Notes under the pieces: model-generated | Databases searched by the model: none | Seen by the model: the letters and a program-made list of their open reading frames with translations, nothing else | What the model was told of the DNA's origin: nothing | Shown: piece by piece, positions 3,417 to 39,659 of the stretch | Position numbering within the stretch: the stretch's first letter is position 1 | How the letters are laid out: each line of letters opens with the position of its first letter | Translations under genes and position numbers: made by a program | NCBI GenBank assembly: GCA_902556105.1 | Contig: CACDUZ010000004.1 | Coordinates: 17,727 to 81,726 of the forward strand | Source: an uncultured SAR86 cluster bacterium | Lineage (GTDB): Bacteria; Pseudomonadota; Gammaproteobacteria; Magnimaribacterales; D2472 | DNA: 64,000 bases | Direction: 5' to 3'

Positions 3417-4328
3417 ATGGAAAATAATAATTCAAATATGCACAACAATTCTGTTGATGAAATAAATATAAGAGAGCTTTTTCAAACTATTTGGAAGGGC
3501 AAAATCACTATCTTTGGTATCACTTTGCTTTCATCAATATTAGCAGTTTTATTTAGTCTTAGCTTGCCTAATATATATCAATCAGAGGCTATCTTAAGTC
3601 CTGTTGGAGCTGAAGTTGGTTCCAAGAAAAATTCAAATATTGGAGGATTGGCTAGTCTAGCAGGTATCAATTTATCGTCGCAACCTGTAGGAAATTCAAT
3701 TAAGGCCATGGAAAAAGTTAGAACACTTAGTTTTTTTGAAGATTATATTCTACCCAATATATTTCTACCTAATCTCATGGCGGTAGACTCCTGGGATCCA
3801 GATACTAACAAAATCTCATATAATGAAAAAGACTATAATGAAAAGACAAAAACTTGGAATGAAATTCCAAGTGCTCAAGAAAGTTATGACGAATTTAAAG
3901 ATATAATGAGTTTTACTCAGGATTATGACACAGGTTTTGTGTCTGTTTCTGTAAGACATCAATCACCACATATAGCAAAAGATTGGGTAGATCTCATTGT
4001 AAACCAAATAAATTACTTCTTTAGAATGAATGATAAAAAAGAAGCAAATTTATCAATAGATTTCTTGAATATGCAAATATCACAAACAAGCTATACTGAA
4101 ATCAAGCAAGTTATTGCGCAACTACTTCAGAATAAAGTGCAACAGTTAACTTTGATAGAGGCAAATGAGTTTTATGTTTTTTCCTATCTAGATCCTCCTG
4201 CTGCTATGGAAGATCGTGAAGAACCTAATCGTGTATCAATTTGTTTTTTGGGTTTTATTTTTGGAGTGTTATTAGGCCTCTTAATTGTTATAACTCGTCA
4301 GTATATCTACACTAAAGAGAATTATTAG
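3417..4328 (+). CDS. wzz: Polysaccharide chain-length determinant (Wzz/PCP-1 type, no kinase domain)
   Basis: 303 aa. It has the N-terminal Wzz pattern (IDEINIRELFQTIWKGK plus a TM helix, then PNIYQSEAIL) and a second TM helix at the C-terminus. Confidence 0.75.
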   Translation: MENNNSNMHNNSVDEINIRELFQTIWKGKITIFGITLLSSILAVLFSLSLPNIYQSEAILSPVGAEVGSKKNSNIGGLASLAGINLSSQPVGNSIKAMEKVRTLSFFEDYILPNIFLPNLMAVDSWDPDTNKISYNEKDYNEKTKTWNEIPSAQESYDEFKDIMSFTQDYDTGFVSVSVRHQSPHIAKDWVDLIVNQINYFFRMNDKKEANLSIDFLNMQISQTSYTEIKQVIAQLLQNKVQQLTLIEANEFYVFSYLDPPAAMEDREEPNRVSICFLGFIFGVLLGLLIVITRQYIYTKENY

Positions 4329-11430: not shown

Positions 11431-12569
11431 TGTTTGAAAATACTATTGAGTTCATTCAAGAAATATATAAATCAAAGGAGTTTATTCCTTTGCATGAGCC
11501 AAGGTTCTCTGGCAATGAAAAAAAATATATTAACGAATGCATTGATTCAACTTTTGTTTCATCGATTGGTAAGTATGTAGATGAATTTGAAGAAAAAATT
11601 GCAAAATATACAGGTGCAAAATTTGCTGTTGCAACCAGCAATGGAACTTCCGCACTTCATGTATCACTCTTGCTTGCAAATGTGAATCAAAATGATGAAG
11701 TTATAACTCAACCTTTGACCTTCATCGCTACCTGTAATGCAATTAGTTATTGTGGCGCACAACCAATATTTATTGATGTTGACAAAGATACAATGGGTTT
11801 ATCACCGGCCGCACTGAAATACTTTCTTAAAGACAATACAACTGTTAAAAATAAACAATGCATAAATAATATAACTGGTAGAGTAATTAAAGCATGTGTT
11901 CCAATGCATACTTATGGACACCCATGCAAAATAGACGAAATTAAACAAATTTGCGATGAACATCATATATTTTTAATTGAAGATGCTGCTGAAAGTGTTG
12001 GTAGTAAATATAAAGATAAGCATACTGGGACTTTTGGTCAATTAGGAGTTATGAGTTTTAATGGTAATAAAATTATTACATCAGGGGGTGGTGGATGTGT
12101 TGTTACAAATGATAAGATTCTTGCAAAAAAGGCTAAACACTTGACCACAACTGCGAAAGTGCCACATAAATGGGATTTTAACCATGATATGGTGGGTTAT
12201 AATTATCGAATGCCAAATATAAACGCAGCTTTGCTTGTTGCACAGCTTGAAAATCTAAATTATTTTCTTGAAAACAAGCGAAGGCTTGCTAAAACTTATG
12301 AAGAATTCTTCAAAACTCAAGAATATACTTTTTTTAAAGAACCAAAACTTAGTAAATCTAATTATTGGTTAAATACACTTCTTCTTAAAGATAAAAAACA
12401 ACGAGACAAATTTTTAAAAGAAACCAATTCAAGCAACGTAATGACACGTCCAGTATGGATAATGATGCATAAGCTTTCAATGTTTGAAAATGCTCAATGT
12501 GGGGATTTAACTAATTCAGAATGGTTGAATGATCGTGTTGTCAATATACCAAGCAGCGTAGTTGTATGA
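11430..12569 (+). CDS. legC: DegT/DnrJ/EryC1-family PLP aminotransferase
   Basis: 379 aa. The MSFNGNKIITSGGGG lysine block is typical of sugar aminotransferases. The start overlaps the legB stop as TAATG. Confidence 0.85.
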   Translation: MFENTIEFIQEIYKSKEFIPLHEPRFSGNEKKYINECIDSTFVSSIGKYVDEFEEKIAKYTGAKFAVATSNGTSALHVSLLLANVNQNDEVITQPLTFIATCNAISYCGAQPIFIDVDKDTMGLSPAALKYFLKDNTTVKNKQCINNITGRVIKACVPMHTYGHPCKIDEIKQICDEHHIFLIEDAAESVGSKYKDKHTGTFGQLGVMSFNGNKIITSGGGGCVVTNDKILAKKAKHLTTTAKVPHKWDFNHDMVGYNYRMPNINAALLVAQLENLNYFLENKRRLAKTYEEFFKTQEYTFFKEPKLSKSNYWLNTLLLKDKKQRDKFLKETNSSNVMTRPVWIMMHKLSMFENAQCGDLTNSEWLNDRVVNIPSSVVV

Positions 12570-13144
12570 ATAATATTGTATTGATCGGTGGCGGTGGACA
12601 TTGCAAATCAGTAATAGACATTATTGAGGAAGAAGGTAGATTCAAGATCGCAGGAATACTAGATAAGCATGAACTATTAGGAACTAAAATCTTAGGCTAT
12701 TCGGTTTTTGGAATTGATGCAGATATGCCAAAATTAGCAAAAAAATATAAATATGCACTTATAACAGTAGGTCAAATAAAATCACCATCTCTTAGAATCA
12801 AATTATTTAACTTAGCTGTTAAATCAGGATTTATTTTACCCACGATCATTTCCCCAAATGCATACGTGTCAAAGCATTCATCCATTGGAAACGGTGTTGT
12901 TGTGATGCACAATGCAGTCGTTAATGCAAATACATCAATAGGGAATAATTGTATTCTAAATTCTAAGGCACTTATCGAACATGATTGTGAAATATCTGAG
13001 CATTGTCACATTTCCACAAACGCAACCATAAATGGCGGTACTAGAATAGAATCGGGGTGTTTTGTTGGCAGTAATGTAACCACTAAAGAGTTAATTGTTA
13101 TAAGAAAGAACAGTTTTATCAAGGCTGGTAGTTTAGTTAAATGA
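12566..13144 (+). CDS. legH: Hexapeptide-repeat N-acetyltransferase (PglD/NeuD family)
   Basis: 192 aa. The N-terminus is NIVLIGGGGHCKSVIDI and the C-terminus carries left-handed beta-helix repeats. ATGA overlaps occur at both ends. Confidence 0.8.
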   Translation: MNNIVLIGGGGHCKSVIDIIEEEGRFKIAGILDKHELLGTKILGYSVFGIDADMPKLAKKYKYALITVGQIKSPSLRIKLFNLAVKSGFILPTIISPNAYVSKHSSIGNGVVVMHNAVVNANTSIGNNCILNSKALIEHDCEISEHCHISTNATINGGTRIESGCFVGSNVTTKELIVIRKNSFIKAGSLVK

Positions 13145-14136
13145 GTGTATTTATTATTGCCGAAGCTGGTGTCAATCATAATGGCTCAATTGATATAGCA
13201 AAAAAGCTCATTGATGTTGCCTCTGATGCTGGCGCAGATGCAGTTAAGTTTCAAACCTTTAAGGCAAAAGATTTAGTAAGTAAAATTGCTCAGAAAGCAG
13301 AATATCAAAAAAAAACCACAGATAAGACTGAGTCTCAATTTGACATGATAAAAAAATTAGAGCTCGATGCTAGAACACATGAAGATCTAATATCTTATTG
13401 TAAGAGCAAATATATAATCTTTTTATCAAGCCCCTTTGATATAGATAGCATAAATTTTTTGAATGATTTAGGTTTAGAGGTATTTAAAATACCAAGTGGT
13501 GAAATCACAAACCTTCCTTATTTAAGAGAAATTGGAAAGCTAAATAAAAAAGTAATTTTATCAACTGGAATGGCAAATATTGATGAAATACAGGATGCTT
13601 TAGATGTCCTTATATCTGAAGGAACAAAAAAAGAAAATATTACAGTACTTCATGCAAATACCATGTACCCAACACCCATGAAAGATGTAAATCTAAAAGC
13701 TATGATCACCATTGGAAATAAATTTGATATAGCTTTTGGTTATAGTGATCATACCTTGGGAATTGAAGTAGATATTGCAGCTGTTGCAATGGGCGCTCAA
13801 TGTATAGAAAAGCATTTTACACTTGATAACACTTTTGAAGGACCTGACCATAGAGCTAGTCTAGAGCCTGATGAATTAAAATCTATGATTAAAGCTATAA
13901 GAAATATTGAAAAGGCTCTAGGAAATGGTATTAAAAAACCATCAAGCAGTGAAAGTCCAAATATTCAAGTAGCTAGAAAGTCAATAGTCGCAAAAACAAA
14001 GATTAAAAAAGGCGATATTCTTAATGAGAAAAATCTTACAATAAAAAGGCCAGGCAACGGAATTAGTCCGATGAGATGGGATAAAATAGTCGGTACAATC
14101 GCAAGTAAAAATTACAGTGAAGACGAATTAATATGA
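13141..14136 (+). CDS. legI: Legionaminic acid synthase (NeuB family)
   Basis: AEAGVNHNGS, VKFQTF, YSDHT and GPDHRAS motifs plus a C-terminal SAF domain. Confidence 0.85.
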   Translation: MSVFIIAEAGVNHNGSIDIAKKLIDVASDAGADAVKFQTFKAKDLVSKIAQKAEYQKKTTDKTESQFDMIKKLELDARTHEDLISYCKSKYIIFLSSPFDIDSINFLNDLGLEVFKIPSGEITNLPYLREIGKLNKKVILSTGMANIDEIQDALDVLISEGTKKENITVLHANTMYPTPMKDVNLKAMITIGNKFDIAFGYSDHTLGIEVDIAAVAMGAQCIEKHFTLDNTFEGPDHRASLEPDELKSMIKAIRNIEKALGNGIKKPSSSESPNIQVARKSIVAKTKIKKGDILNEKNLTIKRPGNGISPMRWDKIVGTIASKNYSEDELI

Positions 14137-15296
14137 CTAAAAGAAAAGTATGCGTAATCACAGGAACGCGTGCTGAATATGGCTTGCTTTATTGGCTCAT
14201 AAAAGAAATTGAATCTGATCAAGAGCTCGCTCTTCAATTAATAGTTACAGGCATGCATTTAAGCCCTCAATTTGGATTAACTTACAAAGAAATTGAGAAA
14301 GAATTCAAGATAAATAAAAAGATAGATATTCTGTCTTCCTCAGATACTGATAAAGATATTTCAAAATCTATGGGTTTAGCACAAATATCTTTTGCAGAAA
14401 CTTTTGAGGAACTAAGACCAGATATTATTGTGGTTCTTGGAGATAGGTATGAGATTTTTAGTGCAGTTGCTGCAGGCATGATTGCAAGAATTCCAATAGC
14501 ACATATTCATGGTGGAGAATCTTCTGAAGGCGCAATTGATGAGGCTATTCGTCACAGCATCACAAAGATGAGCCATTTACATTTTACAGCCTCAGAAGAA
14601 TACAAGAATAGAGTCATCCAATTAGGTGAGGATCCTGAAAGAGTTTTCAATGTTGGTGGTATGGGCATTGAAAATATCAATAGATTAGAACTGCTAAGTA
14701 AAGATGAATTAGAAAAATCCTTAAATTTCAAACTTAATAAAAAAAATATATTAATTACTTTTCATCCTGCAACCCTTGAAAATAAAACATCAAAAACGCA
14801 GTTTAAAGAATTACTTGATGCTGTAGATGAGTTAGATGACACCAACATCATTGTAACAAAATCAAATAGTGACTCTGGTGGAAAAATAATTAATAAAATG
14901 ATTGATGATTATGTCGTTCAAAATAATCATAAGTCTATTGGATTTGCCTCATTGGGGCAGTTAAGATATTTAAGCGCTATGCAATATATCGATGCAATTG
15001 TTGGAAATAGTTCAAGTGGGCTTATAGAGGCACCGAGTTTTAAAATAGGTACTATAAATATAGGTGACAGGCAAAAAGGTCGTATTAAGGCAGATAGCGT
15101 GATTGATTGTTTGCCAAATAAGGAATCTATTAGAAATGCATTCAATATTTTATATTCTAAAAAATTTCAATCAGGATTGAAAACTATTCAAAATCCTTAT
15201 GATCAAGGAGATTCTAGTAAAAATGTAATTAAAGCTTTAAAAACTGATCTGTTGGATAATATATTAAAAAAATCATTCTATAATCTAAATTTTTAA
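14133..15296 (+). CDS. legG: Hydrolysing NDP-sugar 2-epimerase (NeuC family)
   Basis: 387 aa with KVCVITGTRAEYGLL, VLGDRYE and HIHGGE blocks. Confidence 0.85.
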   Translation: MTKRKVCVITGTRAEYGLLYWLIKEIESDQELALQLIVTGMHLSPQFGLTYKEIEKEFKINKKIDILSSSDTDKDISKSMGLAQISFAETFEELRPDIIVVLGDRYEIFSAVAAGMIARIPIAHIHGGESSEGAIDEAIRHSITKMSHLHFTASEEYKNRVIQLGEDPERVFNVGGMGIENINRLELLSKDELEKSLNFKLNKKNILITFHPATLENKTSKTQFKELLDAVDELDDTNIIVTKSNSDSGGKIINKMIDDYVVQNNHKSIGFASLGQLRYLSAMQYIDAIVGNSSSGLIEAPSFKIGTINIGDRQKGRIKADSVIDCLPNKESIRNAFNILYSKKFQSGLKTIQNPYDQGDSSKNVIKALKTDLLDNILKKSFYNLNF

Positions 15297-30694: not shown

Positions 30695-31420
30695 ATGTCA
30701 TCCAATAAAGACATTTTCTCCCCAGAGCTTATAAAGGATAAAGGCTCTATTCATCCAATAAATCATATGAAAGACTCAATCATGGGTCTGCTAGTTTCAT
30801 TTGGGTTTGAAATTATTGATGGCCCTGAGATTGAAACTGAAGAGTTCAATTTTGATATGCTAAATATAAAAAAAACGCATCCAGCTAGACAGATGCATGA
30901 CACCTTTTATGTTGAAGGCAAATCAAATTTGTTAAGGACCCATACCTCACCAGTTCAAATAAGAGGAATGCTTGAGAAAAGACCTCCACTAGCCTTCATT
31001 TCTGGTGGTAAAGTTTATAGAAAAGATGATGATGCAACTCATTTACCTATGTTTCATCAAATTGAGGGGATTTTAGTAGATAAAAATATAAGCTTCGCAC
31101 ATTTGAAAGATTTGATTTACAAAATTGTTCATTCATTGTTTGGTAAAGACATTGAATTAAGATTTAGACCTTCATATTTTCCATTCACAGAACCATCAGC
31201 TGAAGTTGATATTTTATCAAGTGAAGGAAAGTGGTTAGAAATTCTTGGATGTGGATTAGTAAATCCTAAAGTACTTGAGAATTGTAATATTGATTCGAAT
31301 TCCTACTCTGGTTTAGCATTTGGTTTGGGTATAGAAAGGATAGCTATGCTGAAACATGGAGTGAAAGACATAAGAGAGTTTTATAAATCTAACTTAGATT
31401 TTTTATGTCAATTTAAATGA
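30695..31420 (+). CDS. pheS: Phenylalanine-tRNA ligase alpha subunit, lacking the N-terminal coiled-coil arm
   Basis: 241 aa. It aligns with E. coli PheS from about residue 90 to the end (HPARQMHDTF, FRPSYFPFTEPSAEVD, GLGIERIAML). The gene starts 15 nt after rplT, so no upstream coding space exists. Confidence 0.95.
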   Translation: MSSNKDIFSPELIKDKGSIHPINHMKDSIMGLLVSFGFEIIDGPEIETEEFNFDMLNIKKTHPARQMHDTFYVEGKSNLLRTHTSPVQIRGMLEKRPPLAFISGGKVYRKDDDATHLPMFHQIEGILVDKNISFAHLKDLIYKIVHSLFGKDIELRFRPSYFPFTEPSAEVDILSSEGKWLEILGCGLVNPKVLENCNIDSNSYSGLAFGLGIERIAMLKHGVKDIREFYKSNLDFLCQFK

Positions 31421-33327
31421 AAATAGCATACAAGCATTTAGTAAAAAACATTATTGCAAATCCTTCAATAGACGAGATTTCTGATCGCTTATTTCAACTA
31501 GGACATGAGCATGAGATTGAAAATGATATCTTTAATATGGAATTTACCCCAAATAGAGGTGACTGCCTATCATTAAATGGTCTTTTAAGAGATTTATCAG
31601 TTTTTTATGACGTTAACGCAAGCCAAGAAATTTATAATGAAAAATTAAATATTTTAGATATTGATTTTGAAAATTTTTCACAAGATATTTGTCCTCAAAT
31701 TTCATTTCTTAAATTAGAAATAGAGAGCATTCCTGTTAAATATAAAGACTATTTAAATGATTATTTTATAGATTTAAATCTGAATAAGAATAATTTTTTT
31801 ACTGATATTTCTAATTATATTTCTTATGAAAATGGACAACCAACTCACTGTTACGATGCTGATAAGATCAATGGTAAATTAGTATTCCAAGAACTAGATA
31901 TTGATCAAGAATTTGAAACGTTACTTGGAAAAAAAATTAATCTAACAAATAAAAATCCAGTGTTCCTTTTAAAGGATAAAGTAATAAATCTAGCTGGAGT
32001 TATTGGAGGAATAGAAACATCGTGTACTTCAGATACAAAGACAGCTCTTGTTGAATGCGCTTTTTTCAAACCAGAATCAATAATTGGTAAATCTGTTAAA
32101 TATGATATTCAATCTGAGGCATCTTATAAGTTTGAGAGATTTGTTGACCCAGAATGTCAAGATAGAACAATTAGAAGATTTATTAAAATAGTTGATGAAC
32201 ATACAAACATAAAAGACATGTCTGTTATTTCATATAAGTTTAAACAAAATAAAGTTACAAAAATTCCTATTAAGACTAATGAAATCAATCAAATTATTGG
32301 CATTAATATAAGCCAAGATTCATATTTGAATTATTTATCTAAATTAGGCTTTATTATAAATGATGAATATATAGAAGCTCCTTCATATAGAAGTGATATC
32401 GAAACACAAAATGACCTAGCTGAGGAGATTGCAAGAGTCATTGGTTATGACAATATCACAAGGAATGAAATAACTATTCCCAAAGGAAAAAAATCCAACA
32501 TCCATGATTTAGAAAATAATCTAAGATATTTTTTATTAGATGAAGGTTTTTATGAGATTATTAATTTTCCTTTTGTTGGAAGTGATTCAAGTAATTCTAT
32601 TTCGGTAGATAACCCACTAGATTCTAATAAAAAATATCTTAGATCTAATTTAACTGAATCCTTATTAGAAAATCTTCTTTACAATGAAAGAAGACAGAAA
32701 GATTCAATTAAATTATTTGAAATATCAGATATTTACACCGTCAAAAACAATAAGATAAATGTAAAAAGAAAACTTGGAATCATTGCAAGCGGAAGAGCAG
32801 GGCATAACTATAAAGATTTTTCAAAAAAAATTAGTAAGAAGTATCTCACCTCAGTTTTTAAAGAGACCTTACCTAATGAAAATTTTGAATTTAAAGTATT
32901 AAATAGAGAGTTATTAAATACAAAAGTGAAGAATGAGATTATTTGTTGTGAAGTAGATATAGCGAATTTCTCATCTGATGTTTTATCCTATAAAAAGATA
33001 TCTAAACCCCCTGAAAGTTTTACAGAATATTCCCCTATATCTGACTTACCTTACTCTATTAGAGACTTATCTTTTTCAATAAAAGATTTCACAGAACTAG
33101 ATAAATTTATAGAGTACATTTTAGAATTCAAACACAAGCTATTAAAAGAAATATATATATTTGATTATTTTAATAATGAAAAGAATGCCGAAATTAAAAT
33201 CGGCTTTAGATTTATTTTCCAATCAGCAGACTCTACAATAACAGAAGCGCAGGTAAACGATATAATAAGTGTTATAATAGATCATACTGAGGAGATAGAA
33301 GGTATTACTATACCTGGTTTAATATAG
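31417..33327 (+). CDS. pheT: Phenylalanine-tRNA ligase beta subunit, shortened (OB-fold B2 domain absent)
   Basis: 636 aa. N-terminal B1 residues run straight into FTPNRGDCLSLNGLLRDLS, skipping the tRNA_bind OB domain. The B3/4, B5 and C-terminal FDX-ACB-like parts are present. ATGA overlap with pheS. Confidence 0.9.
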   Translation: MKIAYKHLVKNIIANPSIDEISDRLFQLGHEHEIENDIFNMEFTPNRGDCLSLNGLLRDLSVFYDVNASQEIYNEKLNILDIDFENFSQDICPQISFLKLEIESIPVKYKDYLNDYFIDLNLNKNNFFTDISNYISYENGQPTHCYDADKINGKLVFQELDIDQEFETLLGKKINLTNKNPVFLLKDKVINLAGVIGGIETSCTSDTKTALVECAFFKPESIIGKSVKYDIQSEASYKFERFVDPECQDRTIRRFIKIVDEHTNIKDMSVISYKFKQNKVTKIPIKTNEINQIIGINISQDSYLNYLSKLGFIINDEYIEAPSYRSDIETQNDLAEEIARVIGYDNITRNEITIPKGKKSNIHDLENNLRYFLLDEGFYEIINFPFVGSDSSNSISVDNPLDSNKKYLRSNLTESLLENLLYNERRQKDSIKLFEISDIYTVKNNKINVKRKLGIIASGRAGHNYKDFSKKISKKYLTSVFKETLPNENFEFKVLNRELLNTKVKNEIICCEVDIANFSSDVLSYKKISKPPESFTEYSPISDLPYSIRDLSFSIKDFTELDKFIEYILEFKHKLLKEIYIFDYFNNEKNAEIKIGFRFIFQSADSTITEAQVNDIISVIIDHTEEIEGITIPGLI

Positions 33328-33374
33328 GTCTTGCTTGCAAGCGGGTCAAACATTTGGGTGAAAAATAAAAGATT

Positions 33375-35192
33375 ATGAAAATTATTAAGTTAGTATTATT
33401 AATGTTAGTCACAGTATCTATTAATGCACAAGAATTAGATGAAGAGTTTCTTGCAAGTCTACCAGATGATGTCAGGAAGGACATTCAAGAAAGGAATCAG
33501 CAAAAAGCTGATGGCACCGCTGAAACATATAGACCCTATGTCTACTCTTCAAAATTAAAAAAAGTTGAATCTTTTCTGAAATTAAAAGATAGGTTGGAAG
33601 CAGACCTATTAGAGCTTGAGAGAAGAATATCTTCTGACGAAAAAATTGCTCGTAGTGAAGATTTAAAGGTTTATGGCTCAGATTTTTTTAATACCTTTCA
33701 AACATCATTTATGCCAATTAATGAACCTAATCCTGATTCTGGGTATATGCTAGATGTTGGAGATGTTGTGCAAGTTCAATTAGTTGGCCCAAATGCATCA
33801 TTAGAAGAGCTTTTAATAAACCCCGATGGTTCAGTTAGTCTGCCAGATATAGGAAAGATATCTATAGCAGGCTTGTCATTAAATGATGCTTCACAGTTAA
33901 TAAAATCTAAGGTTAATGCTGCATTAATAGGAAATGAAGCGTTCATTAATCTTACTGAAATAAGAGATGTAAATATTTTAGTAACTGGTAACGCAGAAAA
34001 TCCTGGTATTTATACCTTAACTGGAAATTCAAATATATTACATGCATTGTCAGCTGCAGGAGGTATAAGTGAGTTTGGGTCTCTAAGGGAAATAAATCTT
34101 GTTAGAGATAATATTACTATTGAAACATTAGATATTTATGATTTGCTAATTGAAGGACAATATAATCTCAAAAAACGACTCAGATCTGGGGATGTTGTTT
34201 TTGTCAAGCCAAGAAAAAATATTGTTACCATCGACGGTGCAATAAACAGACCTTCAAAGTATGAAGCTGCAGATGATCAAAAACTTATAAGTATTATTAA
34301 TTATGCTAATGGTATTAACCGAAATGCTGACCTTAAAAATATTTCTCTTGAAAGACTTGTTGATGGATCATTAAAAACTATACCAGTCCCAAATGATAGT
34401 TATCTTGAAGCAATTAATGTTGAAGATGGTGATTCAATTTACGTTAGAGAATATCCATACAGGCAAGCTAAAATTTCGGGTGCTGTTCTCAAACCAGGAT
34501 CATATACAATGTCTGCAGGTGAAACAATTAGTGATTTAATTAAAAGAGCAGGTGGCTTTACAGAGAATGCTTATCAGTTTGGTGCAATTTATTTAAATGA
34601 GGATGCAAAAAAAGTAAATGAGTTATCAAAAGAAATTCTATATCGAGAATTTCTAGATAATATTATTGCTGCAAGCCAACAAAATATAGGTGGAAATTTT
34701 GATTTGACTCCCATAGTAAAATTGACTGAAAAACTAAACAATACCGATTCAAATGGAAGAGTTGTTATAAATCTACTAAATGAACCTACTATTGATCTTT
34801 ATAGCGTCAAAGAGGGCGATGAGTTATTTGTTCCTGAAAGAAATAATGTTGTTTATGTATACGGAGAAACTTCTACTGAGGGAGCGGTTATGTTCACTGA
34901 AAATCAAGGTGTAGAGTATTTTGTTGATAAATCGGGAGGCTTTAAAAAGTTTGCTGATAATGAATCAATCTATATTCTTCATCCAAACGGAGAGTCACAA
35001 CTATATAGATCAAAAAGAAATATTTTTGAGAGTCGTCCTAAGAGTGAAATAAAAATTTATCCTGGCTCAATAATTTTTGTACCAAGAGCATTAGATGAAT
35101 CTGCCCCAAGAAGATTAGCAACTCAGGCTTATGTCTCAATCCTTGGTAATCTAGGAATTGCTTTGGCATCTTTATCAGCTATAAACGATTAA
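33375..35192 (+). CDS. Outer-membrane polysaccharide export protein (Wza/OPX family, multi-SLBB, long form)
   Basis: 605 aa. It has a type I signal peptide, a Poly_export block (GYMLDVGDVVQVQLVG..NPDGSVSLPDIGKISIAGLSLNDA), several SLBB-like repeats (GDVVFVKPR, GDSIYVRE, GDELFVPER) and a hydrophobic C-terminal helix. Confidence 0.8.
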   Translation: MKIIKLVLLMLVTVSINAQELDEEFLASLPDDVRKDIQERNQQKADGTAETYRPYVYSSKLKKVESFLKLKDRLEADLLELERRISSDEKIARSEDLKVYGSDFFNTFQTSFMPINEPNPDSGYMLDVGDVVQVQLVGPNASLEELLINPDGSVSLPDIGKISIAGLSLNDASQLIKSKVNAALIGNEAFINLTEIRDVNILVTGNAENPGIYTLTGNSNILHALSAAGGISEFGSLREINLVRDNITIETLDIYDLLIEGQYNLKKRLRSGDVVFVKPRKNIVTIDGAINRPSKYEAADDQKLISIINYANGINRNADLKNISLERLVDGSLKTIPVPNDSYLEAINVEDGDSIYVREYPYRQAKISGAVLKPGSYTMSAGETISDLIKRAGGFTENAYQFGAIYLNEDAKKVNELSKEILYREFLDNIIAASQQNIGGNFDLTPIVKLTEKLNNTDSNGRVVINLLNEPTIDLYSVKEGDELFVPERNNVVYVYGETSTEGAVMFTENQGVEYFVDKSGGFKKFADNESIYILHPNGESQLYRSKRNIFESRPKSEIKIYPGSIIFVPRALDESAPRRLATQAYVSILGNLGIALASLSAIND

Positions 35193-35222
35193 TTAGATAA
35201 AGAAACGATTAATTAGATAAAG
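35183..35222. repeat. Perfect 20-bp tandem duplication (AAACGATTAATTAGATAAAG x2)
   Basis: Read directly from the sequence: 35183-35202 is identical to 35203-35222. Copy 1 contains the last codons and the stop of the export gene. Confidence 0.95.
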
Positions 35223-35226
35223 ATGA

Positions 35227-37200
35227 ATGAAAAAAAGCGTTAAAAGTTATGTACATAATTTTCTAGTATTAGCCACATTAATTTTTACTTATCAAGTTTA
35301 TGGTGACAGTTTCGAACATAATTTGTATAACAATTATGGAGTCGTAGGGTTAATAAGTACTCCAACTGCAAGAACCTATAATGAAGGTGTGCATGGGGTA
35401 ACAGTATATAATGGAACGCCTAATCAAACTGTTACTCTCTCCGCTAATCCTTTTGATTGGTTTGAGGCATCTTTCTTTTATACAAATGTTCAAGATAGAC
35501 CATACTGCTATGAGACTTATGACTTAGTCTGCCAACAAGATTTTAAAGATAAAGGTTTCAATGTAAAATTAAGGCTGAAAGAACAGGGTAAATTACCTGC
35601 CATTGCAATTGGGTTGAATGACTTTGCAGGTACTGGTATATATAGCTCAGAATATATAGTTGGTAGTTACGGAATAAATAGAACTGATTTCCATTTTGGA
35701 TTAGGTTTTGGACTATTGAATGGCTCTGACCTAAGTTTCAAGAACCCGCTAAGTTATATTTCTGACAAATTTAACGATAGACCAACTAATACAGAAGGCT
35801 TAGGAGGAAGTTTTCAACCGTCAAGATATTTTTCTGGAGAGACCGCTTCACCTTTTTTTGGTGTATCCCATGCTTTAAGCAATAAGTTGCTGCTCAAGGC
35901 AGAGTACGATTCCACGGTTAGGCCAGGTTTAGTTCCTTATAGAACTCCTGAGAATGATTTTTCGTTTGGTGTAGATTATTTGATTACTGATAACTTTAGT
36001 ATTGGCGTCTCTTATGAGAGAGGAGATTATGCTTCTTTTAAATTTGTTTATAAAAATGATCCCGTTAAGACATTTGAGAAAGCTCAATATGCAAGAGGAG
36101 ATCGTCGAAGAGGTGATAATAAGTACACTCAGTTAATAAACAATCTTGAAGAGAATGGTATTGGTGTAAAAAAACTTACTAGAAACGCAAATTCAATAGG
36201 CCTTCAACTCACCCAAGTTATCCATCCTAGTCTAAGTGTCGTAGAAGATATTATTAGTCAGTCAGCAAGAGATGCTGGAATAACTGAAGATATTGTAAAA
36301 GACATTGAAATTGCAAATTTATTAGCTGTTTCAGAGATTGACGATTCTTATAGAGCAACTTCTCAAACAATATACGAAAGAAGTACTGCAAAAAGGTTTA
36401 GTACAAACACTCGAGCAAACTTTAGACCATTTCTTGCATCGAGGGAAGAATTTTTTAAAGGTGCTTTTTTGGTTGAAAATGATACTGAATTCATATTAAG
36501 AGAAAATCTATTTTTTAATACCAACCTAAAATATAGCCTAGCCGACAATTTAGATGATTTATTTTTACCACCAGTTGATGTTTTCCCTGCTCAAGTAAGA
36601 TCAGATGTTAAACAGTATTTAAAAAATATTAAAGATGGAGGTCTTTTGATAGGAAGGGCCCAACTGGATTACCATTTAACCCCATACAAGAATCATCATA
36701 TTATGATGTCTGCTGGAATCTTTGAAGATATGTTTTCTGGAGTAGGAGGGGAATATTTATATTTCACACCAAATACCAATTATTCATTTGGAGTAGATGT
36801 TTTTAAAGTTTTTAAGAGAGATTATGAATGGAGGTTTGGTCTCTTAGATTATAAAAATACGATGGCAACAGTAAATTTTAATTATAGAAATTATGGAACA
36901 ATACCCTTTGATATGAAGATTTCTGCAGGAGAATATCTTGCTGGTGACGTTGGGTACACCATTGAATTTTCTAGATCTTTTTATAATGGCGTGTATTTTG
37001 GAGCTTTTGCTACCTTCACTGACGTTACTACAGCGCAATTTGGTGAAGGAAGCTTTGACAAGGGCATCTTTTTTAACATACCTATATACGGTAACTTAAT
37101 AAATTATACTTGGAGACCTTTGACAAAAGATCCAGGAGCAAAGCTCAATAGAAGACATACTTTGCATGGTTTATTGGTCAAACTTCAGCCAATTAACTAA
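35227..37200 (+). CDS. YjbH/GfcD-family outer-membrane exopolysaccharide protein
   Basis: 657 aa. YGVVGLISTPTAR, FKDKGFNVKLRLKE, GLNDFAGTGIYSSEYIV, and the C-terminal YLAGDVGYTIEFSRSF..FGEGSFDKGIFFNIP..WRPLTKDPGAKL parallel E. coli YjbH as I recall it. Confidence 0.85.
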   Translation: MKKSVKSYVHNFLVLATLIFTYQVYGDSFEHNLYNNYGVVGLISTPTARTYNEGVHGVTVYNGTPNQTVTLSANPFDWFEASFFYTNVQDRPYCYETYDLVCQQDFKDKGFNVKLRLKEQGKLPAIAIGLNDFAGTGIYSSEYIVGSYGINRTDFHFGLGFGLLNGSDLSFKNPLSYISDKFNDRPTNTEGLGGSFQPSRYFSGETASPFFGVSHALSNKLLLKAEYDSTVRPGLVPYRTPENDFSFGVDYLITDNFSIGVSYERGDYASFKFVYKNDPVKTFEKAQYARGDRRRGDNKYTQLINNLEENGIGVKKLTRNANSIGLQLTQVIHPSLSVVEDIISQSARDAGITEDIVKDIEIANLLAVSEIDDSYRATSQTIYERSTAKRFSTNTRANFRPFLASREEFFKGAFLVENDTEFILRENLFFNTNLKYSLADNLDDLFLPPVDVFPAQVRSDVKQYLKNIKDGGLLIGRAQLDYHLTPYKNHHIMMSAGIFEDMFSGVGGEYLYFTPNTNYSFGVDVFKVFKRDYEWRFGLLDYKNTMATVNFNYRNYGTIPFDMKISAGEYLAGDVGYTIEFSRSFYNGVYFGAFATFTDVTTAQFGEGSFDKGIFFNIPIYGNLINYTWRPLTKDPGAKLNRRHTLHGLLVKLQPIN

Positions 37201-37379
37201 ATTATTTGATTAAAAATCTGTACATAGAAAGAATTAACATATTTAAATGTTTAAATTTAGGACATAATTTTGTGTCTTTTTTAAAAATACTTTGTTAACA
37301 TGTCTTTCCTGAGTTGTATTACTGTTTAAATTATGTGAATATAGCTCTAATGAAATAGCAAAATTTAGAGGAAATAGCT

Positions 37380-39281
37380 ATGAAGAAATTTTATTTAGTT
37401 TGTTTAACCATATTATCTTTTGGACTTAATGCAGAGGTTAGTCCTGAAAGAATGTCACAAATAGACTCAAGCGTCGATGCTATGTCTATGAATGAGCTCA
37501 GAGACAGAAGGTCATACCTTATTAAAGAGCAGTCTATGTTACTAGAGACTCAATCAAGTACACAAAACCCTTCAACTGTTAAAAGCTCTTCTAGTAGGTT
37601 GGCTGAAATACGTGCAGAGTTAAGTGCTATACAGAAAGCATTAATAGGGATTGTTGGTATAGCTGCTATTAGCTCTCTTAGTGATGATGGATATAACGAT
37701 AACGTACCACCAGTAATAACAGTTAATGGCTCTAATCCTGCAACAGTAGAATTAGGCGCAACATATTCAGATGCTGGCGCAACTGCTTTTGATGAATATC
37801 ATGGAAGTACTTCAGTATCATCATCAAGTAATGTTGATACTTCAGCTGTGGGTTCATATACAGTAACCTATACTGCAACCGATTTAGATGGCAATTCTGC
37901 AACTGCTTCAAGAACTGTTAATGTTGTTGATACAACAGCACCGGTAGTGACTTTAACAGGTGATAATCCTGTAACAGTAGAATTAGGCGCTACTTATACT
38001 GATGCTGGCGCAACTGCAACCGATGCATCTGGTACAGTTGAAGTAGTTACTACTGGAACTGTCGATACAGATACAGTAGGCGAATATACATTAACATACA
38101 CATCCACAGATGCTTCAGGAAATGTCTCAGAATCAGTCACAAGAACTGTTAATGTTACTGATACAGTAAGTCCAGTATTTACATCCTCATCAACATTTAC
38201 AGTTGACGAAAATATAACAGATATTGGAAATGTTACTGTAACTGAACTTGATACTGTAACCTTTACTATTGGGGCGACAACTAGCCCTGCATTGCAAGCA
38301 GGAACTAAATCAGTGCTACAAATAACAAGTAGTGGTGCATTATCCTTTAGCACAGCTCCTGATTATGATTTACAAGTAACTGATGTTCAGTTATATACAG
38401 ATGGAGAAACTGAGGCGTCTGGCTTTGGACCTGATGCTTTCGGTACTGTAACTAAACGAACAAGAACATTATCAGGCTATAACTCTGGTGCAACTATGGA
38501 CTTTACTGCAACAGTTACAGCTACTGATGCTTCTGGTAACGCTGCAACTCAAGACATTACCGTTCAGGTAAGAGATGTTGGTGGTGTTGATGACGACGCA
38601 TCTACAGGTACAGGTACAGGTACAGGTACAGGTACAGGAACAAGTACAGGGACAAGCTCTCTTCAAACTCCTGAAAACTTTTTAATTACTGCTCCTGTAT
38701 TTACATCTTCAGACACATTTGTAGTTGACGAGAATGTAGAATACATTGGAGTTGTTACTGCAACTGTTGATGCTGGTGCTGGTGTTACAGAGATCACCTA
38801 TAAAGTAGGTCCAACAACTGGTCCTGCAACTTTAGAAGGTGAACCAGGTAGAGTTACTTCAATTATTCAAATAACTGCTGGTGGCACATTAGCCTTTAAC
38901 ATGGCTCCAGACTATGATTTACAATTACCTGATGCTTATGAAGTTCAAAGAACAGGTACGAATGATTTTGTTAATCAATCAACCTTAAACTGTAATACTT
39001 ATTTAGATAATTTCACTTGTGAAAGAACTAAATTTGAAACATTGGGTGGCTATGAAAATGGCGCAACAATGGACTTCACTACAACAGTTACAGCTACGAC
39101 CACTCAAGGTGTCGCTTCCACACAAGACATTACCGTTCAGGTAAGAGATGTTGGTGGTGTTGATGATGATGCATCTACAGGTACAGGTACAGGAACAGGT
39201 ACAGGTACAGGAACTGGTACTGCTACTAACACAGCAGGTGGCGATACAGGACCATTTGGTGGTACTGTAATTAATGACTAA
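37380..39281 (+). CDS. Secreted or surface repeat protein: 2 Ig-like (DUF5011-type) domains plus 2 cadherin-like modules, each ending in a (Thr-Gly)n tract
   Basis: It has a signal peptide (..FGLNA-EV), a coiled region and a hydrophobic stretch ALIGIVGIAAISSL. Two NPxTVELGATYxDAGATA..YTxTYTxTDxxGN repeats follow. Two modules then end in ATMDFTxTVTAT..TQDITVQVRDVGGVDDDASTGTGTGTGTG. Confidence 0.75.
   Translation: MKKFYLVCLTILSFGLNAEVSPERMSQIDSSVDAMSMNELRDRRSYLIKEQSMLLETQSSTQNPSTVKSSSSRLAEIRAELSAIQKALIGIVGIAAISSLSDDGYNDNVPPVITVNGSNPATVELGATYSDAGATAFDEYHGSTSVSSSSNVDTSAVGSYTVTYTATDLDGNSATASRTVNVVDTTAPVVTLTGDNPVTVELGATYTDAGATATDASGTVEVVTTGTVDTDTVGEYTLTYTSTDASGNVSESVTRTVNVTDTVSPVFTSSSTFTVDENITDIGNVTVTELDTVTFTIGATTSPALQAGTKSVLQITSSGALSFSTAPDYDLQVTDVQLYTDGETEASGFGPDAFGTVTKRTRTLSGYNSGATMDFTATVTATDASGNAATQDITVQVRDVGGVDDDASTGTGTGTGTGTGTSTGTSSLQTPENFLITAPVFTSSDTFVVDENVEYIGVVTATVDAGAGVTEITYKVGPTTGPATLEGEPGRVTSIIQITAGGTLAFNMAPDYDLQLPDAYEVQRTGTNDFVNQSTLNCNTYLDNFTCERTKFETLGGYENGATMDFTTTVTATTTQGVASTQDITVQVRDVGGVDDDASTGTGTGTGTGTGTGTATNTAGGDTGPFGGTVIND
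38550..38657 (+). repeat. Copy 1 of the intragenic repeat plus an (ACAGGT)n hexanucleotide tract
   Basis: 38550-38620 matches 39123-39193 at 69 of 71 positions by my count. (ACAGGT)5 at 38604-38633 is followed by degenerate units up to 38657. Confidence 0.9.
39123..39221 (+). repeat. Copy 2 of the intragenic repeat plus an (ACAGGT/ACAGGA)n tract
   Basis: Partner of 38550-38620. Thr-Gly codon units run from 39177 to 39221. Confidence 0.9.
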
Positions 39282-39305: not shown

Positions 39306-39578
39306 ATGGGCTTTGGAAAAAAAGATATTATAAAAAATATCTCTTCCAAAGCCCTTTTTACATCTAATACGAGTAACTTATTTTTGAATGCCTTTCTAGA
39401 CTTAATCAAAGAAAACAAAAGAAAGAAAATCAAGATATCTAAATTCGGAACTTATTATTTACATAAAAGTCCAGCTAGAATAGGCAGAAATCCAAAAACA
39501 AAAGAAGAATTTAAAATTCCAGCTTCAGAGAAGCTTGCATTTAAAGCCTCAAATAAAGTTAAATCTATATTAAATTAA
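39306..39578 (+). CDS. ihfA: IHF/HU-family DNA-binding protein (IHF alpha by synteny)
   Basis: 90 aa. The KISKFGTYYLHKSPARIGRNPKTKEEFKIPASEKLAFKAS arm motif (GRNPKT) is present, and ihfA follows pheT in many Gammaproteobacteria. Confidence 0.7.
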   Translation: MGFGKKDIIKNISSKALFTSNTSNLFLNAFLDLIKENKRKKIKISKFGTYYLHKSPARIGRNPKTKEEFKIPASEKLAFKASNKVKSILN

Positions 39579-39582
39579 TAAA

Positions 39583-39659
39583 TGGTCGGGATGGCCGGAT
39601 TTGAACCGACGACCACTACACCCCCAGTGTAGTGCGCTACCAGACTGCGCTACATCCCG
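39583..39659 (-). tRNA. tRNA-Pro (anticodon GGG), CCA encoded
   Basis: The reverse complement is CGGGATGTAGCGCAGTCTGGTAGCGCACTACACTGGGGGTGTAGTGGTCGTCGGTTCAAATCCGGCCATCCCGACCA. It folds into a full cloverleaf: 7-bp acceptor stem, GCGC D stem, CTACA/TGTAG anticodon stem with loop CTGGGGG, and GTCGG/CCGGC T stem. Confidence 0.95.

What the first reader, a model, noticed from the sequence alone, without database searches (positions are those of the whole stretch)
33375..39281. A 5.9-kb export and surface module interrupts the conserved pheT-ihfA junction
In E. coli and many Gammaproteobacteria, ihfA follows pheT directly (thrS-infC-rpmI-rplT-pheST-ihfA). Here three genes lie between them: a 605-aa multi-SLBB Wza/OPX protein, a YjbH/GfcD-family outer-membrane protein, and a secreted Thr-Gly-rich repeat protein. 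The combination recalls the enterobacterial gfc/yjb operons, which pair a Thr-rich secreted protein with GfcD/YjbH and Wza/GfcE. The differences are the gene order, the absence of GfcB/C (YjbF/G) equivalents, and a 633-aa Ig/cadherin protein in the place of the roughly 100-aa GfcA/YjbE. The role of YjbH-family proteins remains poorly understood. This reduced two-component version next to a candidate cargo or partner protein could be an informative natural variant.
Basis: partly seen in the sequence, partly recalled or inferred. Interest (0 to 1): 0.65.

Follow-up and report, generated by a model that had tools for sequence, protein, structure and literature searches.

The report
SAR86 Gfc/Yjb-type capsule export module
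Between pheT and an ihfA-like gene, this uncultured marine SAR86 bacterium carries a lineage-conserved three-gene outer-membrane export module related to the E. coli group 4 capsule genes, in which the small threonine-rich partner protein has become a large, highly transcribed Ig-domain surface protein, which gives a natural handle on what that unexplained partner does.

Summary
The three genes are real and sit at the stated coordinates. They are a 605-aa OPX/Wza-type exporter, a full-length YjbH/GfcD protein (PF06082, E 7e-119), and a 633-aa secreted Ig/cadherin protein with two (Thr-Gly)n tracts.

The window is from SAR86 (about 31% GC). The module is not a recent insertion. pheT-OPX-yjbH-X-ihfA occurs in at least 11 related SAR86 species (pheT identity 52-96%), plus two contigs that end inside the module. 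A sister clade has pheT-ihfA-OPX-yjbH-x, and a distant SAR86 clade has neither.

The claim that GfcC is absent is wrong. The C-terminal half of the exporter is a GfcC/YjbG module (hhalign 97%, Foldseek hit to 3P42), which makes it a published "Class 2" OPX. No GfcB/YjbF was found in the DNA I held.

The third gene has the layout of GfcA/YjbE: signal peptide, short Ala/Gly/Ile hydrophobic segment, Asp-Gly motif and Thr-rich tail. Versions of 161-192 aa without Ig domains in the sister clade bridge the size gap.

The third gene stays next to yjbH through rearrangements and is absent together with it in one genome. It is the only Thr-rich ORF among 712. Its contig depth in eight metatranscriptomes is roughly 10-fold above that of the exporter genes.

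Verdict: a new variant of a known, poorly understood system, of moderate interest.

The parts
31417..33327 (+). pheT, a short 636-aa form. Upstream flank of the module.
   Evidence: Pfam B3_4, B5, tRNA_synthFbeta and FDX-ACB. Used as the anchor for synteny in 34 SAR86 loci.
33375..35192 (+). Class 2 OPX exporter. It has a Sec signal peptide without a lipobox Cys, an N-terminal helical region, Poly_export, three SLBB beta-grasp domains, a GfcC-like module and a C-terminal hydrophobic helix.
   Evidence: Pfam. PDB sequence hits to Wza 2J58. AF2 model with mean pLDDT 73.7, about 85-90 over residues 120-530. Foldseek hits Wza at E 1.7e-17 and GfcC 3P42 at E 5.5e-10.
34572..35084 (+). GfcC/YjbG-like module inside the exporter (residues about 400-570). 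It comprises a helical hairpin plus a beta-grasp domain.
   Evidence: hhalign of the SAR86 OPX C-half profile against GfcC+YjbG gives probability 97.3%, E 2.8e-11, 159 columns. tblastn with YjbG hits the C-halves of SAR86 OPX genes at E 2e-9. Pfam Caps_syn_GfcC_C scores 16.3 bits here, below the cutoff of 20, but 28.3 bits in the L023 orthologue.
35103..35174 (+). C-terminal hydrophobic helix of the exporter (residues 577-600). It is a candidate Wza_C-type outer-membrane helix.
   Evidence: AF2 predicts a helix at 577-600, at low pLDDT as a monomer. The hydrophobic pattern is conserved in all 19 SAR86 orthologues. No Pfam Wza_C hit was found.
35183..35222 (+). Perfect 20-bp tandem duplication spanning the exporter's stop codon.
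   Evidence: TRF reports period 20, 2.0 copies, 100% identity. Five relatives have a single copy.
35227..37200 (+). YjbH/GfcD-family two-barrel outer-membrane protein. N-terminal barrel: residues 55-276 (35389-36054). Middle alpha/beta domain: residues 299-384 (36121-36378). C-terminal barrel: residues 391-629 (36397-37113).
   Evidence: PF06082 at E 6.8e-119. About 28% identity to E. coli GfcD and YjbH over their whole length in SAR86 orthologues. The AF2 model (pLDDT 71, pTM 0.60) has 12 strands, an alpha/beta domain and 13 strands. This is the topology published for GfcD (PMC11494523, PMC8592465).
37201..37379 (+). Spacer of 179 bp that probably holds the third gene's own promoter. 5' ends of RNA-derived contigs fall at 37355-37375.
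   Evidence: Metatranscriptome contigs begin at 37355, 37358, 37367, 37370 and 37375. One of them abuts a sequencing adapter. Contig depth rises about 10-fold across this spacer. The promoter itself is inferred.
37380..39281 (+). Secreted GfcA/YjbE-like surface protein, in order: signal peptide (residues 1-18); coiled region (19-86); hydrophobic segment with Asp-Gly motif ALIGIVGIAAISSLSDDG (87-104, nt 37638-37691); two Bact_surface_Ig-like domains (nt 37716-38165); cadherin-like domain 1 (38166-38579); (TG)n tract (38603-38654); cadherin-like domain 2 (38700-39173); (TG)n tail (39176-39220).
   Evidence: Pfam, translation, TRF and internal DNA repeats. Layout compared with E. coli GfcA and YjbE and with the 161-192-aa sister-clade forms. 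High transcript contig depth.
39306..39578 (+). IHF-alpha-like HU/IHF-family gene. Downstream flank of the module.
   Evidence: Pfam Bac_DNA_binding. The best NCBIfam hit is IHF alpha at 58 bits, below the cutoff of 111.
39583..39659 (-). tRNA-Pro (GGG), directly after the ihfA-like gene.
   Evidence: ARAGORN.

Best explanation
This is the SAR86 version of the Gfc/Yjb-type outer-membrane polysaccharide export system. It is vertically inherited at this locus and compressed into three genes.

(1) The first gene is a Class 2 OPX protein. It joins a Wza-like channel part (Poly_export plus SLBB domains) to a GfcC/YjbG-like module and a C-terminal hydrophobic helix.

(2) The second gene is a YjbH/GfcD two-barrel outer-membrane protein.

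(3) The third gene is a secreted protein with the GfcA/YjbE layout. Ig and cadherin-like domains have been inserted between the hydrophobic/Asp-Gly motif and the Thr-rich tail.

Inferred mechanism:
- The OPX multimer conducts the strain-specific glycan made by the variable biosynthesis island upstream (window 1-28 kb; PglK-like ABC flippase and a Wzz-type protein).
- The built-in GfcC module docks the OPX to YjbH, as free GfcB-GfcC does to GfcD in E. coli.
- YjbH handles the abundant Thr-rich protein. That protein ends up at the cell surface, held near its N-terminal hydrophobic module. Its variable distal domain and Thr-Gly tracts (likely glycosylation or spacer regions) project outward.

Shown: gene identities, domain architecture, conservation, linkage, and relative transcript contig depth.

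Inferred: the docking, the export route of the third protein, its surface location, any glycosylation, and which glycan is exported.
For: Identities:
- Pfam and NCBIfam.
- The YjbH AF2 model has 12 strands, an alpha/beta domain and 13 strands, matching published GfcD models (PMC11494523, PMC8592465).
- The OPX model hits both Wza and GfcC structures. hhalign of the OPX C-half against GfcC/YjbG gives 97.3% probability, E 2.8e-11.

Conservation:
- 11 SAR86 species keep pheT-OPX-yjbH-X-ihfA at 52-96% pheT identity. L003 and L014 (49%) keep pheT-OPX-yjbH up to their contig ends.
- Five genomes (L008, L011, L016, L027, L033) have pheT-ihfA-OPX-yjbH. L015 has pheT-ihfA-OPX only.
- Identities of the module genes track those of the flanking housekeeping genes.

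Linkage of the third gene to yjbH:
- It is present directly after yjbH wherever the DNA after an intact yjbH is held, on either strand.
- In L023 the OPX gene has moved upstream of pdxH, but yjbH and the third gene stay together.
- In L015 yjbH and the third gene are both absent while the OPX gene remains.
- Of 712 ORFs of at least 100 aa in 722 kb of SAR86 DNA, the only 14 with a 30-aa window of at least 40% Thr are this gene.

GfcA-like layout: signal peptide, A/G/V/I hydrophobic segment, D/G motif and Thr-rich tail occur in E. coli GfcA and YjbE, in the 161-192-aa sister-clade proteins and in the window protein.

Expression: in 8 marine metatranscriptome runs, contigs on the third gene have depths of about 18-50 or more in non-repeat parts. 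The exporter genes and ihfA show 0-5.

Polarity: identity to orthologues falls from 77-84% in the N-terminal modules to 48% in the last cadherin-like domain. This fits a cell-proximal N-terminus and an exposed tip.

Literature:
- The GfcB-GfcC heterodimer binds GfcD, and GfcA has been proposed as a possible glycosylated export substrate (PMC8592465).
- Class 2 OPX proteins carrying GfcC have been found next to GfcD/YjbH genes and were proposed to dock to them (PMC9603273).
Against: - No profile match of the third protein to the Pfam YjbE family, or to any GfcA model, even at E up to 10. The GfcA link rests on position, composition and a short low-complexity motif.
- The third gene has its own transcript level and probably its own promoter. 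In the sister clade it lies on the opposite strand, so it is not strictly an operon member.
- Contig depth is a poor measure of expression. Repeats and related strains inflate it, although non-repeat pieces at 97% likeness or more show the same contrast.
- The window protein's GfcC Pfam score is below the curated cutoff.
- The OPX C-terminal helix has low model confidence and no Wza_C profile hit.
- No PCP-2a/Wzc or KpsE partner lies next to the module.
- No experiment exists for any SAR86 protein.
Confidence: 0.65

Rival explanations
1. The module is a horizontally acquired surface island that recently inserted into a conserved pheT-ihfA operon junction. This is the literal sense of the first reader's title.
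For: In E. coli ihfA follows pheT directly (established knowledge). The third gene has a higher GC content (38-41%) than its surroundings (about 31%). A tRNA-Pro lies just beyond ihfA.
Against: The same arrangement occurs in SAR86 species down to about 50% pheT identity, and module-gene identities parallel those of the flanks. A sister clade has the module immediately after ihfA. A third clade lacks both ihfA and the module after pheT. No integrase or bounding direct repeats were found. The exporter and yjbH have the local GC content. The GC rise in the third gene is explained by its Thr, Gly, Ala, Val and Asp codons.
Confidence: 0.05
2. The exporter and YjbH form a polysaccharide-only export pair. 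The Ig/Thr-Gly protein is an unrelated abundant adhesin or coat protein, secreted by another route, that merely neighbours them.
For: The third gene has a separate and much higher transcript level and likely its own promoter. It lies on the opposite strand in the sister clade. It gives no YjbE profile hit. Ig and cadherin domains are common in adhesins secreted by other systems.
Against: The third gene stays adjacent to yjbH through at least three different rearrangements, is absent together with yjbH in L015, and remains with yjbH when the OPX gene moves away in L023. It is the only Thr-rich ORF in 722 kb. It shares the hydrophobic segment, Asp-Gly motif and Thr-rich tail with GfcA and YjbE, which occupy the same operon in E. 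coli. It has no recognisable T1SS, T5SS or sorting signal: it shows no RTX, autotransporter or other secretion-domain match.
Confidence: 0.2
3. The third protein is a periplasmic or inner-membrane regulator or scaffold of export, as the database name 'threonine-rich inner membrane protein GfcA' implies. It would be neither surface cargo nor anchor.
For: E. coli GfcA is annotated this way. The hydrophobic segment could be a membrane helix.
Against: The hydrophobic segment is only about 14-16 residues long and follows a cleavable signal peptide. An inner-membrane helix would therefore place four Ig/cadherin domains in the cytoplasm. The distal domain is the fastest-evolving part of the locus, at 48% identity. 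The transcript is very abundant. Both features suit an exposed structural protein better than a regulator.
Confidence: 0.1

Closest known systems
E. coli group 4 capsule operon gfcABCDE-etp-etk and its paralogue yjbEFGH
   Same: Both have a YjbH/GfcD two-barrel outer-membrane protein: about 28% identity over the full length in SAR86 orthologues and the same 12 + domain + 13 topology in the window protein's model. Both have a GfcC/YjbG-type beta-grasp module, a Wza-type OPX and a signal-peptide protein with a hydrophobic A/G/V segment, a D/G motif and a Thr-rich tail.
   Different: The gene order is OPX(+GfcC)-D-A instead of A-B-C-D-E. GfcC is fused to the OPX. No GfcB/YjbF was found in the window or in 34 related loci. 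No Etk/Etp (Wzc/Wzb) lies nearby. The A-like protein is 633 aa with four Ig/cadherin domains, against 80-101 aa in E. coli. It is transcribed far above the other two genes.
Class 2 OPX proteins (Poly_export-SLBBn-GfcC with or without Wza_C; the KpsD type) of Saidi et al. 2022, PMC9603273
   Same: The domain order is the same. The length of 605 aa equals the reported Class 2A median. It has a Sec/SPI signal peptide rather than a lipoprotein signal. That paper already counted GfcD/YjbH homologues beside Class 2A/2B OPX genes and proposed that the integrated GfcC module docks to the barrel.
   Different: That survey did not describe SAR86, the third Thr-rich gene or its expansion. Whether this protein is 2A or 2B is unsettled: a C-terminal helix is predicted, but there is no Wza_C profile hit.
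Vibrio wbfBCD/orf1 and OtnG of Burkholderia (a GfcC-GfcD fusion), cited in PMC8592465
   Same: These are further natural rearrangements and fusions of the same components. They argue that GfcC, GfcD and the OPX act together.
   Different: There GfcC is free or fused to the barrel, whereas here it is fused to the OPX. I did not examine those loci myself.

Membership tests
YjbH/GfcD family (Pfam PF06082) | Full-length profile match above the curated threshold | tested here: met
   399 bits against a cutoff of 24, E 6.8e-119. E. coli GfcD and YjbH align over about 650-700 residues to SAR86 orthologues at about 28% identity.
YjbH/GfcD family (Pfam PF06082) | Two barrels in one chain: a 12-strand N-terminal barrel, a middle alpha/beta domain and a 13-strand C-terminal barrel | tested here: met
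   The AF2 model (pLDDT 71, pTM 0.60) has 12 strands (residues 55-276), an alpha/beta domain (299-384) and 13 strands (391-629). Foldseek against the PDB finds only generic barrels, as expected for a family with no solved structure.
YjbH/GfcD family (Pfam PF06082) | Role in exopolysaccharide or capsule production | not testable with these tools
   Only the context supports it: an adjacent OPX gene and a 28-kb glycan biosynthesis island upstream.
OPX Class 2 (Saidi et al. 2022) | Poly_export domain followed by SLBB domains | tested here: met
   Poly_export 50 bits, SLBB 108 bits, SLBB_2 88 bits. Wza structures are hit by sequence and by fold.
OPX Class 2 (Saidi et al. 2022) | A non-overlapping region homologous to GfcC (PDB 3P42) after the SLBB domains | tested here: met
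   hhalign gives 97.3% probability, E 2.8e-11. Foldseek hits 3P42 at E 5.5e-10, TM-score about 0.55 to the target. The Pfam GfcC_C score of the window protein alone is below the cutoff (16.3 against 20). An orthologue scores 28.3.
OPX Class 2 (Saidi et al. 2022) | C-terminal Wza_C outer-membrane helix, which separates subclass 2B from 2A | tested here: inconclusive
   A helix is predicted at 577-600 with a conserved hydrophobic pattern. Model confidence is low and there is no Wza_C Pfam hit.
GfcA/YjbE family | Sequence-profile match (Pfam YjbE family) | tested here: not met
   No such hit for the window protein (E up to 0.01), nor for five further Ig-bearing orthologues or three sister-clade short forms (E up to 10).
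GfcA/YjbE family | Signal peptide, A/G/V-rich hydrophobic segment, Asp/Gly motif and Thr-rich tail, encoded in the same locus as a GfcD/YjbH gene | tested here: met
   Side-by-side comparison with E. coli GfcA and YjbE. The gene is always next to yjbH. It is the only Thr-rich ORF among 712. The motif is low-complexity, so this shows resemblance, not proof of homology.
GfcA/YjbE family | Small size (about 80-100 aa) with no folded domains | tested here: not met
   The window protein is 633 aa with four Ig/cadherin domains. Sister-clade forms are 161-192 aa with none.
Complete gfc/yjb operon | GfcB/YjbF lipoprotein | tested here: inconclusive
   tblastn with E. coli GfcB and YjbF gave no hit below E about 6 in the window or the 34 SAR86 loci. 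No window ORF matched a YjbF model in the Pfam and NCBIfam scans I ran.
Complete gfc/yjb operon | Wzc/Etk-type tyrosine kinase co-polymerase and Wzb/Etp phosphatase | tested here: not met
   None was found among the ORFs scanned, which cover about 0-48.5 kb of the window. The only PCP-like protein is a 303-aa Wzz-domain protein at 3417-4328.
Mobile genomic island | Integrase, bounding direct repeats, patchy presence among close relatives, and foreign composition | tested here: not met
   No integrase was found among the ORFs. No bounding repeats were found. The module is present in all close relatives. The exporter and yjbH have the local GC content.

The most novel reading that the evidence does not exclude
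The Thr-rich protein is the true client of the YjbH double barrel. Its unfolded chain would pass through one barrel. Its short Ala/Gly/Ile hydrophobic segment with the Asp-Gly motif would be released sideways or retained as an outer-membrane anchor. The Ig stalk and the (Thr-Gly)n tracts, possibly carrying the locus-encoded glycan, would be displayed outside the cell. GfcA/YjbE-GfcD/YjbH would then be a previously unrecognised protein (or proteoglycan) display pathway. E. coli would retain only the minimal anchor peptide, and SAR86 would show the full cargo.
Probability: 0.25. Interest if true: 0.75.

Novelty: new variant of a known kind. Interest (0 to 1): 0.5.

Why it matters
GfcD/YjbH proteins are one of the most widespread outer-membrane families. 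Yet the roles of GfcA, GfcB, GfcC and GfcD in capsule formation are still unknown (PMC8592465, PMC11494523).

SAR86 offers a natural minimal version of the system:
- GfcC is welded to the exporter.
- GfcB is apparently dispensable, or at least not encoded nearby.
- The enigmatic A protein is enlarged into a folded, taggable, highly transcribed surface protein.
- A sister clade keeps short forms without Ig domains.

This series identifies which part of the A protein is conserved: the hydrophobic segment, the Asp-Gly motif and the Thr-rich tail. It also gives a concrete, testable prediction that the barrel handles the A protein.

The module also matters for marine ecology. The most variable part of this abundant bacterium's locus is the exposed tip of a major transcript, which makes it a plausible target of phages and grazers.

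Tried and rejected
I could not look for YjbF/GfcB, Wzc or KpsE elsewhere in the genome.
- The search for homologous proteins with YjbH returned only SAR86 relatives of at least 79% identity. It gave no view of other lineages, so I did not repeat it or use the representatives search.
- Pfam at E up to 10 gave no YjbE/GfcA hit for the third-gene products.
- A sequence search of YjbH against the PDB found nothing meaningful. Its Foldseek search gave only generic barrels at TM about 0.15.
- The promoter and terminator scan was no better than shuffled sequence.
- Relaxed Pfam on four unannotated island ORFs found no Wzy, WaaL or PglL-type ligase. Whether a glycan could be attached to protein therefore remains open.
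- I considered and rejected a recent-insertion origin, and a HGT reading of the GC rise in the third gene (codon composition explains it).
- I also considered the shared '...IND' C-termini of the exporter and the third protein. The latter occurs only in the window and its closest relative, so I treat it as chance.

Full report
**Observation**

The window is low in GC (about 31%). On the plus strand it carries infC, rplT, a short pheS (241 aa) and a short pheT (636 aa). Three ORFs follow at exactly the reported coordinates: 33375-35192, 35227-37200 and 37380-39281. After them comes a 90-aa HU/IHF-family gene at 39306-39578 and a tRNA-Pro on the minus strand.

Pfam results for the three ORFs:
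- The first has Poly_export plus several SLBB domains.
- The second is a full-length YjbH (PF06082, 399 bits, E 6.8e-119).
- The third has two Bact_surface_Ig-like domains.

Translation of the third ORF shows a signal peptide, a coiled region and two Ig-like domains. Two cadherin-like modules follow, each ending in ...VQVRDVGGVDDDASTGTGTGTG.... The Thr-Gly tracts are hexanucleotide arrays.

The 'ihfA' is IHF-alpha-like only by best hit: 58 bits against a cutoff of 111.

**Origin and synteny**

A pheT-anchored scan of one genome per species returned 34 loci. Nearly all are titled SAR86. tblastn with the window's proteins and ORF listing show four patterns:
- pheT-OPX-yjbH-X-ihfA-esterase-terB/wecA occurs in L001, L002, L004-L007, L009, L012, L013, L031 and L034 (pheT identity 52-96%). 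L003 and L014 (49%) show pheT-OPX-yjbH up to their contig ends.
- pheT-ihfA-OPX-yjbH-(small gene)-esterase occurs in L008, L011, L016, L027 and L033. L015 has pheT-ihfA-OPX followed directly by the esterase.
- In L023 the OPX gene lies upstream of pdxH, with pheT-yjbH-X-ihfA downstream.
- The TMED112-type SAR86 clade (11 loci, pheT about 41%) has neither ihfA nor the module within 10 kb.

Module-gene identities track those of the flanking genes. No integrase or bounding repeats are present. The module is therefore an old, vertically inherited feature of a large SAR86 group.

The region upstream of pdxH holds glycan biosynthesis genes in the window. These include rml genes, a Wzz-domain protein, a PglK-like ABC flippase, a NeuB-type nonulosonic-acid set and several glycosyltransferases. 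This region varies between relatives. That is the usual pattern of a conserved export module beside a variable biosynthesis island.

**The exporter**

The exporter has a Sec signal peptide with no lipobox cysteine.

E. coli YjbG and GfcC, fetched from K-12, hit the C-terminal halves of SAR86 OPX genes by tblastn at E 2e-9. GfcE hits the N-terminal halves.

Pfam GfcC_N and GfcC_C models match weakly. The window protein scores 16.3 bits, below the cutoff of 20. The L023 orthologue scores 28.3 bits.

A profile of the C-terminal 246 residues from 19 SAR86 orthologues (alignment A1) aligns to GfcC+YjbG. The probability is 97.3% and E is 2.8e-11 over 159 columns, including the helical insertion.

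The AF2 model has pLDDT of about 85-90 over residues 120-530. In order, it shows a Poly_export domain, three beta-grasp domains, a helical hairpin, a further beta-grasp domain and a terminal helix at 577-600. Foldseek finds both Wza (E 1.7e-17) and GfcC 3P42 (E 5.5e-10).

This is the 'Class 2' OPX architecture of Saidi et al. 2022 (PMC9603273). Their Class 2A median length is 605 aa. They already recorded GfcD/YjbH homologues next to Class 2A and 2B genes, and they suggested that the built-in GfcC module docks to the barrel.

**YjbH**

The AF2 model built on 22 sequences (A2) has pLDDT 71 and pTM 0.60. It gives 12 strands (residues 55-276), an alpha/beta domain (299-384) and 13 strands (391-629).

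This matches the two-barrel topology described for GfcD (PMC11494523; PMC8592465). No solved relative exists.

**The third gene**

In every locus that holds DNA after an intact yjbH, the next gene encodes a secreted protein with a common plan:
- a signal peptide;
- an acidic or coiled stretch;
- a 14-16-residue Ala/Gly/Ile/Val segment followed by Asp-Gly (window: ALIGIVGIAAISSLSDDG; sister clade: PGAIAAAVAAAAALIASDDGDGG);
- then zero to four Ig/cadherin domains;
- and a Thr-rich repeat tail of (TG)n, (ST)n, (PT)n or (STGE)n.

The sister-clade forms are 161-192 aa, have no folded domain, and lie on the opposite strand.

E. coli GfcA (...VGVATLAVVAANDSGDGGSHNTSTTTSTTR) and YjbE (...[28 protein letters not shown]) have the same plan. 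No profile match supports homology, so I file this as 'works like / stands in the place of GfcA', not as a proven family member.

Evidence of linkage to yjbH:
- The gene stays with yjbH when the OPX gene is elsewhere (L023).
- It is absent together with yjbH in L015.
- Of 712 ORFs of at least 100 aa in 722 kb of SAR86 DNA, the only 14 with a Thr-rich window are this gene.

**Expression and polarity**

In eight marine metatranscriptome runs from several studies, contigs on the third gene have depths of about 18-50 in non-repeat parts, and hundreds in the repeats. The OPX gene, yjbH and ihfA show about 0-5, and this holds at 97% likeness or more.

Contigs start at 37355-37375 in the 179-bp spacer, and one of them abuts an adapter. 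This suggests the gene has its own promoter. Contig depth is a rough measure, but the contrast is consistent across runs.

Among the eight long orthologues, identity to the window protein falls from 77-84% in the N-terminal modules and Ig domains to 48% in the last cadherin-like domain. This fits a protein anchored near its N-terminus with an exposed, fast-evolving tip.

**Mechanism**

Shown: the architecture, the conservation, the linkage and the relative transcript contig depth.

Inferred:
- The OPX multimer conducts the locus-encoded glycan.
- Its GfcC module docks to YjbH, by analogy with GfcB-GfcC binding to GfcD (PMC8592465).
- YjbH handles the abundant Thr-rich protein, which becomes a surface stalk that may carry glycan on its Thr-Gly tracts.

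Larson et al. had speculated that GfcA might be glycosylated and exported through GfcD. Saidi et al. speculated on protein secretion through the FapF-like N-terminal barrel. Fruet et al. proposed instead a lateral gate for lipid-anchored glycan.

The SAR86 data favour a protein client but cannot decide between these proposals. Rival readings are scored separately: recent island (0.05), unrelated neighbouring adhesin (0.2) and inner-membrane regulator (0.1).

**Limits**

- GfcB/YjbF was not found in the window or in the 34 loci.
- No Wzc/Etk or KpsE partner lies near the module.
- No glycan ligase was identified.

**Earlier notes of this scan**

I consulted these notes only after recording my own reading. 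Other agents reached similar readings in other SAR86 genomes. Those are unchecked AI notes and do not count as support. I tested the overlapping claims independently here.

**Verdict**

This is a lineage-conserved, compressed variant of the Gfc/Yjb system with an expanded, highly transcribed A-type protein. It is a new variant of a known kind and of moderate interest.

Noticed in passing
window 35183-35222: A perfect 20-bp tandem duplication (AAACGATTAATTAGATAAAG, two copies) spans the exporter's stop codon and lengthens the spacer before yjbH. Five close relatives have a single copy, so it is strain-specific or an assembly feature.
   Followed up: yes
window 30695-33327; loci L001-L034: PheS (241 aa) and PheT (636 aa) are much shorter than the E. 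coli proteins. NCBIfam aligns them only from positions about 59 and 155 of the models. The short forms are conserved across all SAR86 loci fetched.
   Followed up: partly
L015:12171-14100: This SAR86 genome keeps the OPX gene after ihfA but has neither yjbH nor the Thr-rich gene before the esterase. This looks like a joint loss of the pair.
   Followed up: partly
L033:13079-14933: yjbH is broken into four short ORFs in this MAG, while the small Pro/Thr-repeat gene persists on the minus strand. This could be pseudogenisation or MAG assembly error.
   Followed up: no
L023:5660-7468 and 11877-14841: The OPX gene lies upstream of pdxH, on the other side of the infC-pheT block, while yjbH and the Thr-rich gene remain between pheT and ihfA. 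The housekeeping translation genes are embedded within a surface-glycan super-locus.
   Followed up: partly
window 39306-39659: The 'ihfA' gene scores below the curated IHF-alpha thresholds (58 against 111 bits). It is followed at once by a minus-strand tRNA-Pro (GGG).
   Followed up: partly
window 33220-33541: Metatranscriptome contig depth in run X1 jumps at the pheT/OPX boundary, from 0-1 to about 128. A promoter-like match (ATAACA-17-TATAAT, 33238-33266) lies in the 3' end of pheT. This hints that the exporter is not simply read through from pheT.
   Followed up: no
window 1-28018: A large surface-glycan biosynthesis island. It holds rml genes, a Wzz-domain protein (3417-4328), a PglK-like ABC flippase (4462-6264), a NeuB/CMP-nonulosonate set, an AsnB-like amidotransferase and several glycosyltransferases. 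Its content differs between SAR86 relatives, whereas the export module does not.
   Followed up: partly
window 35178-35189 and 39267-39278: The exporter and the third protein both end in ...IND (AIND and VIND). For the third protein this holds only in the window and its closest relative, so it is probably chance.
   Followed up: partly
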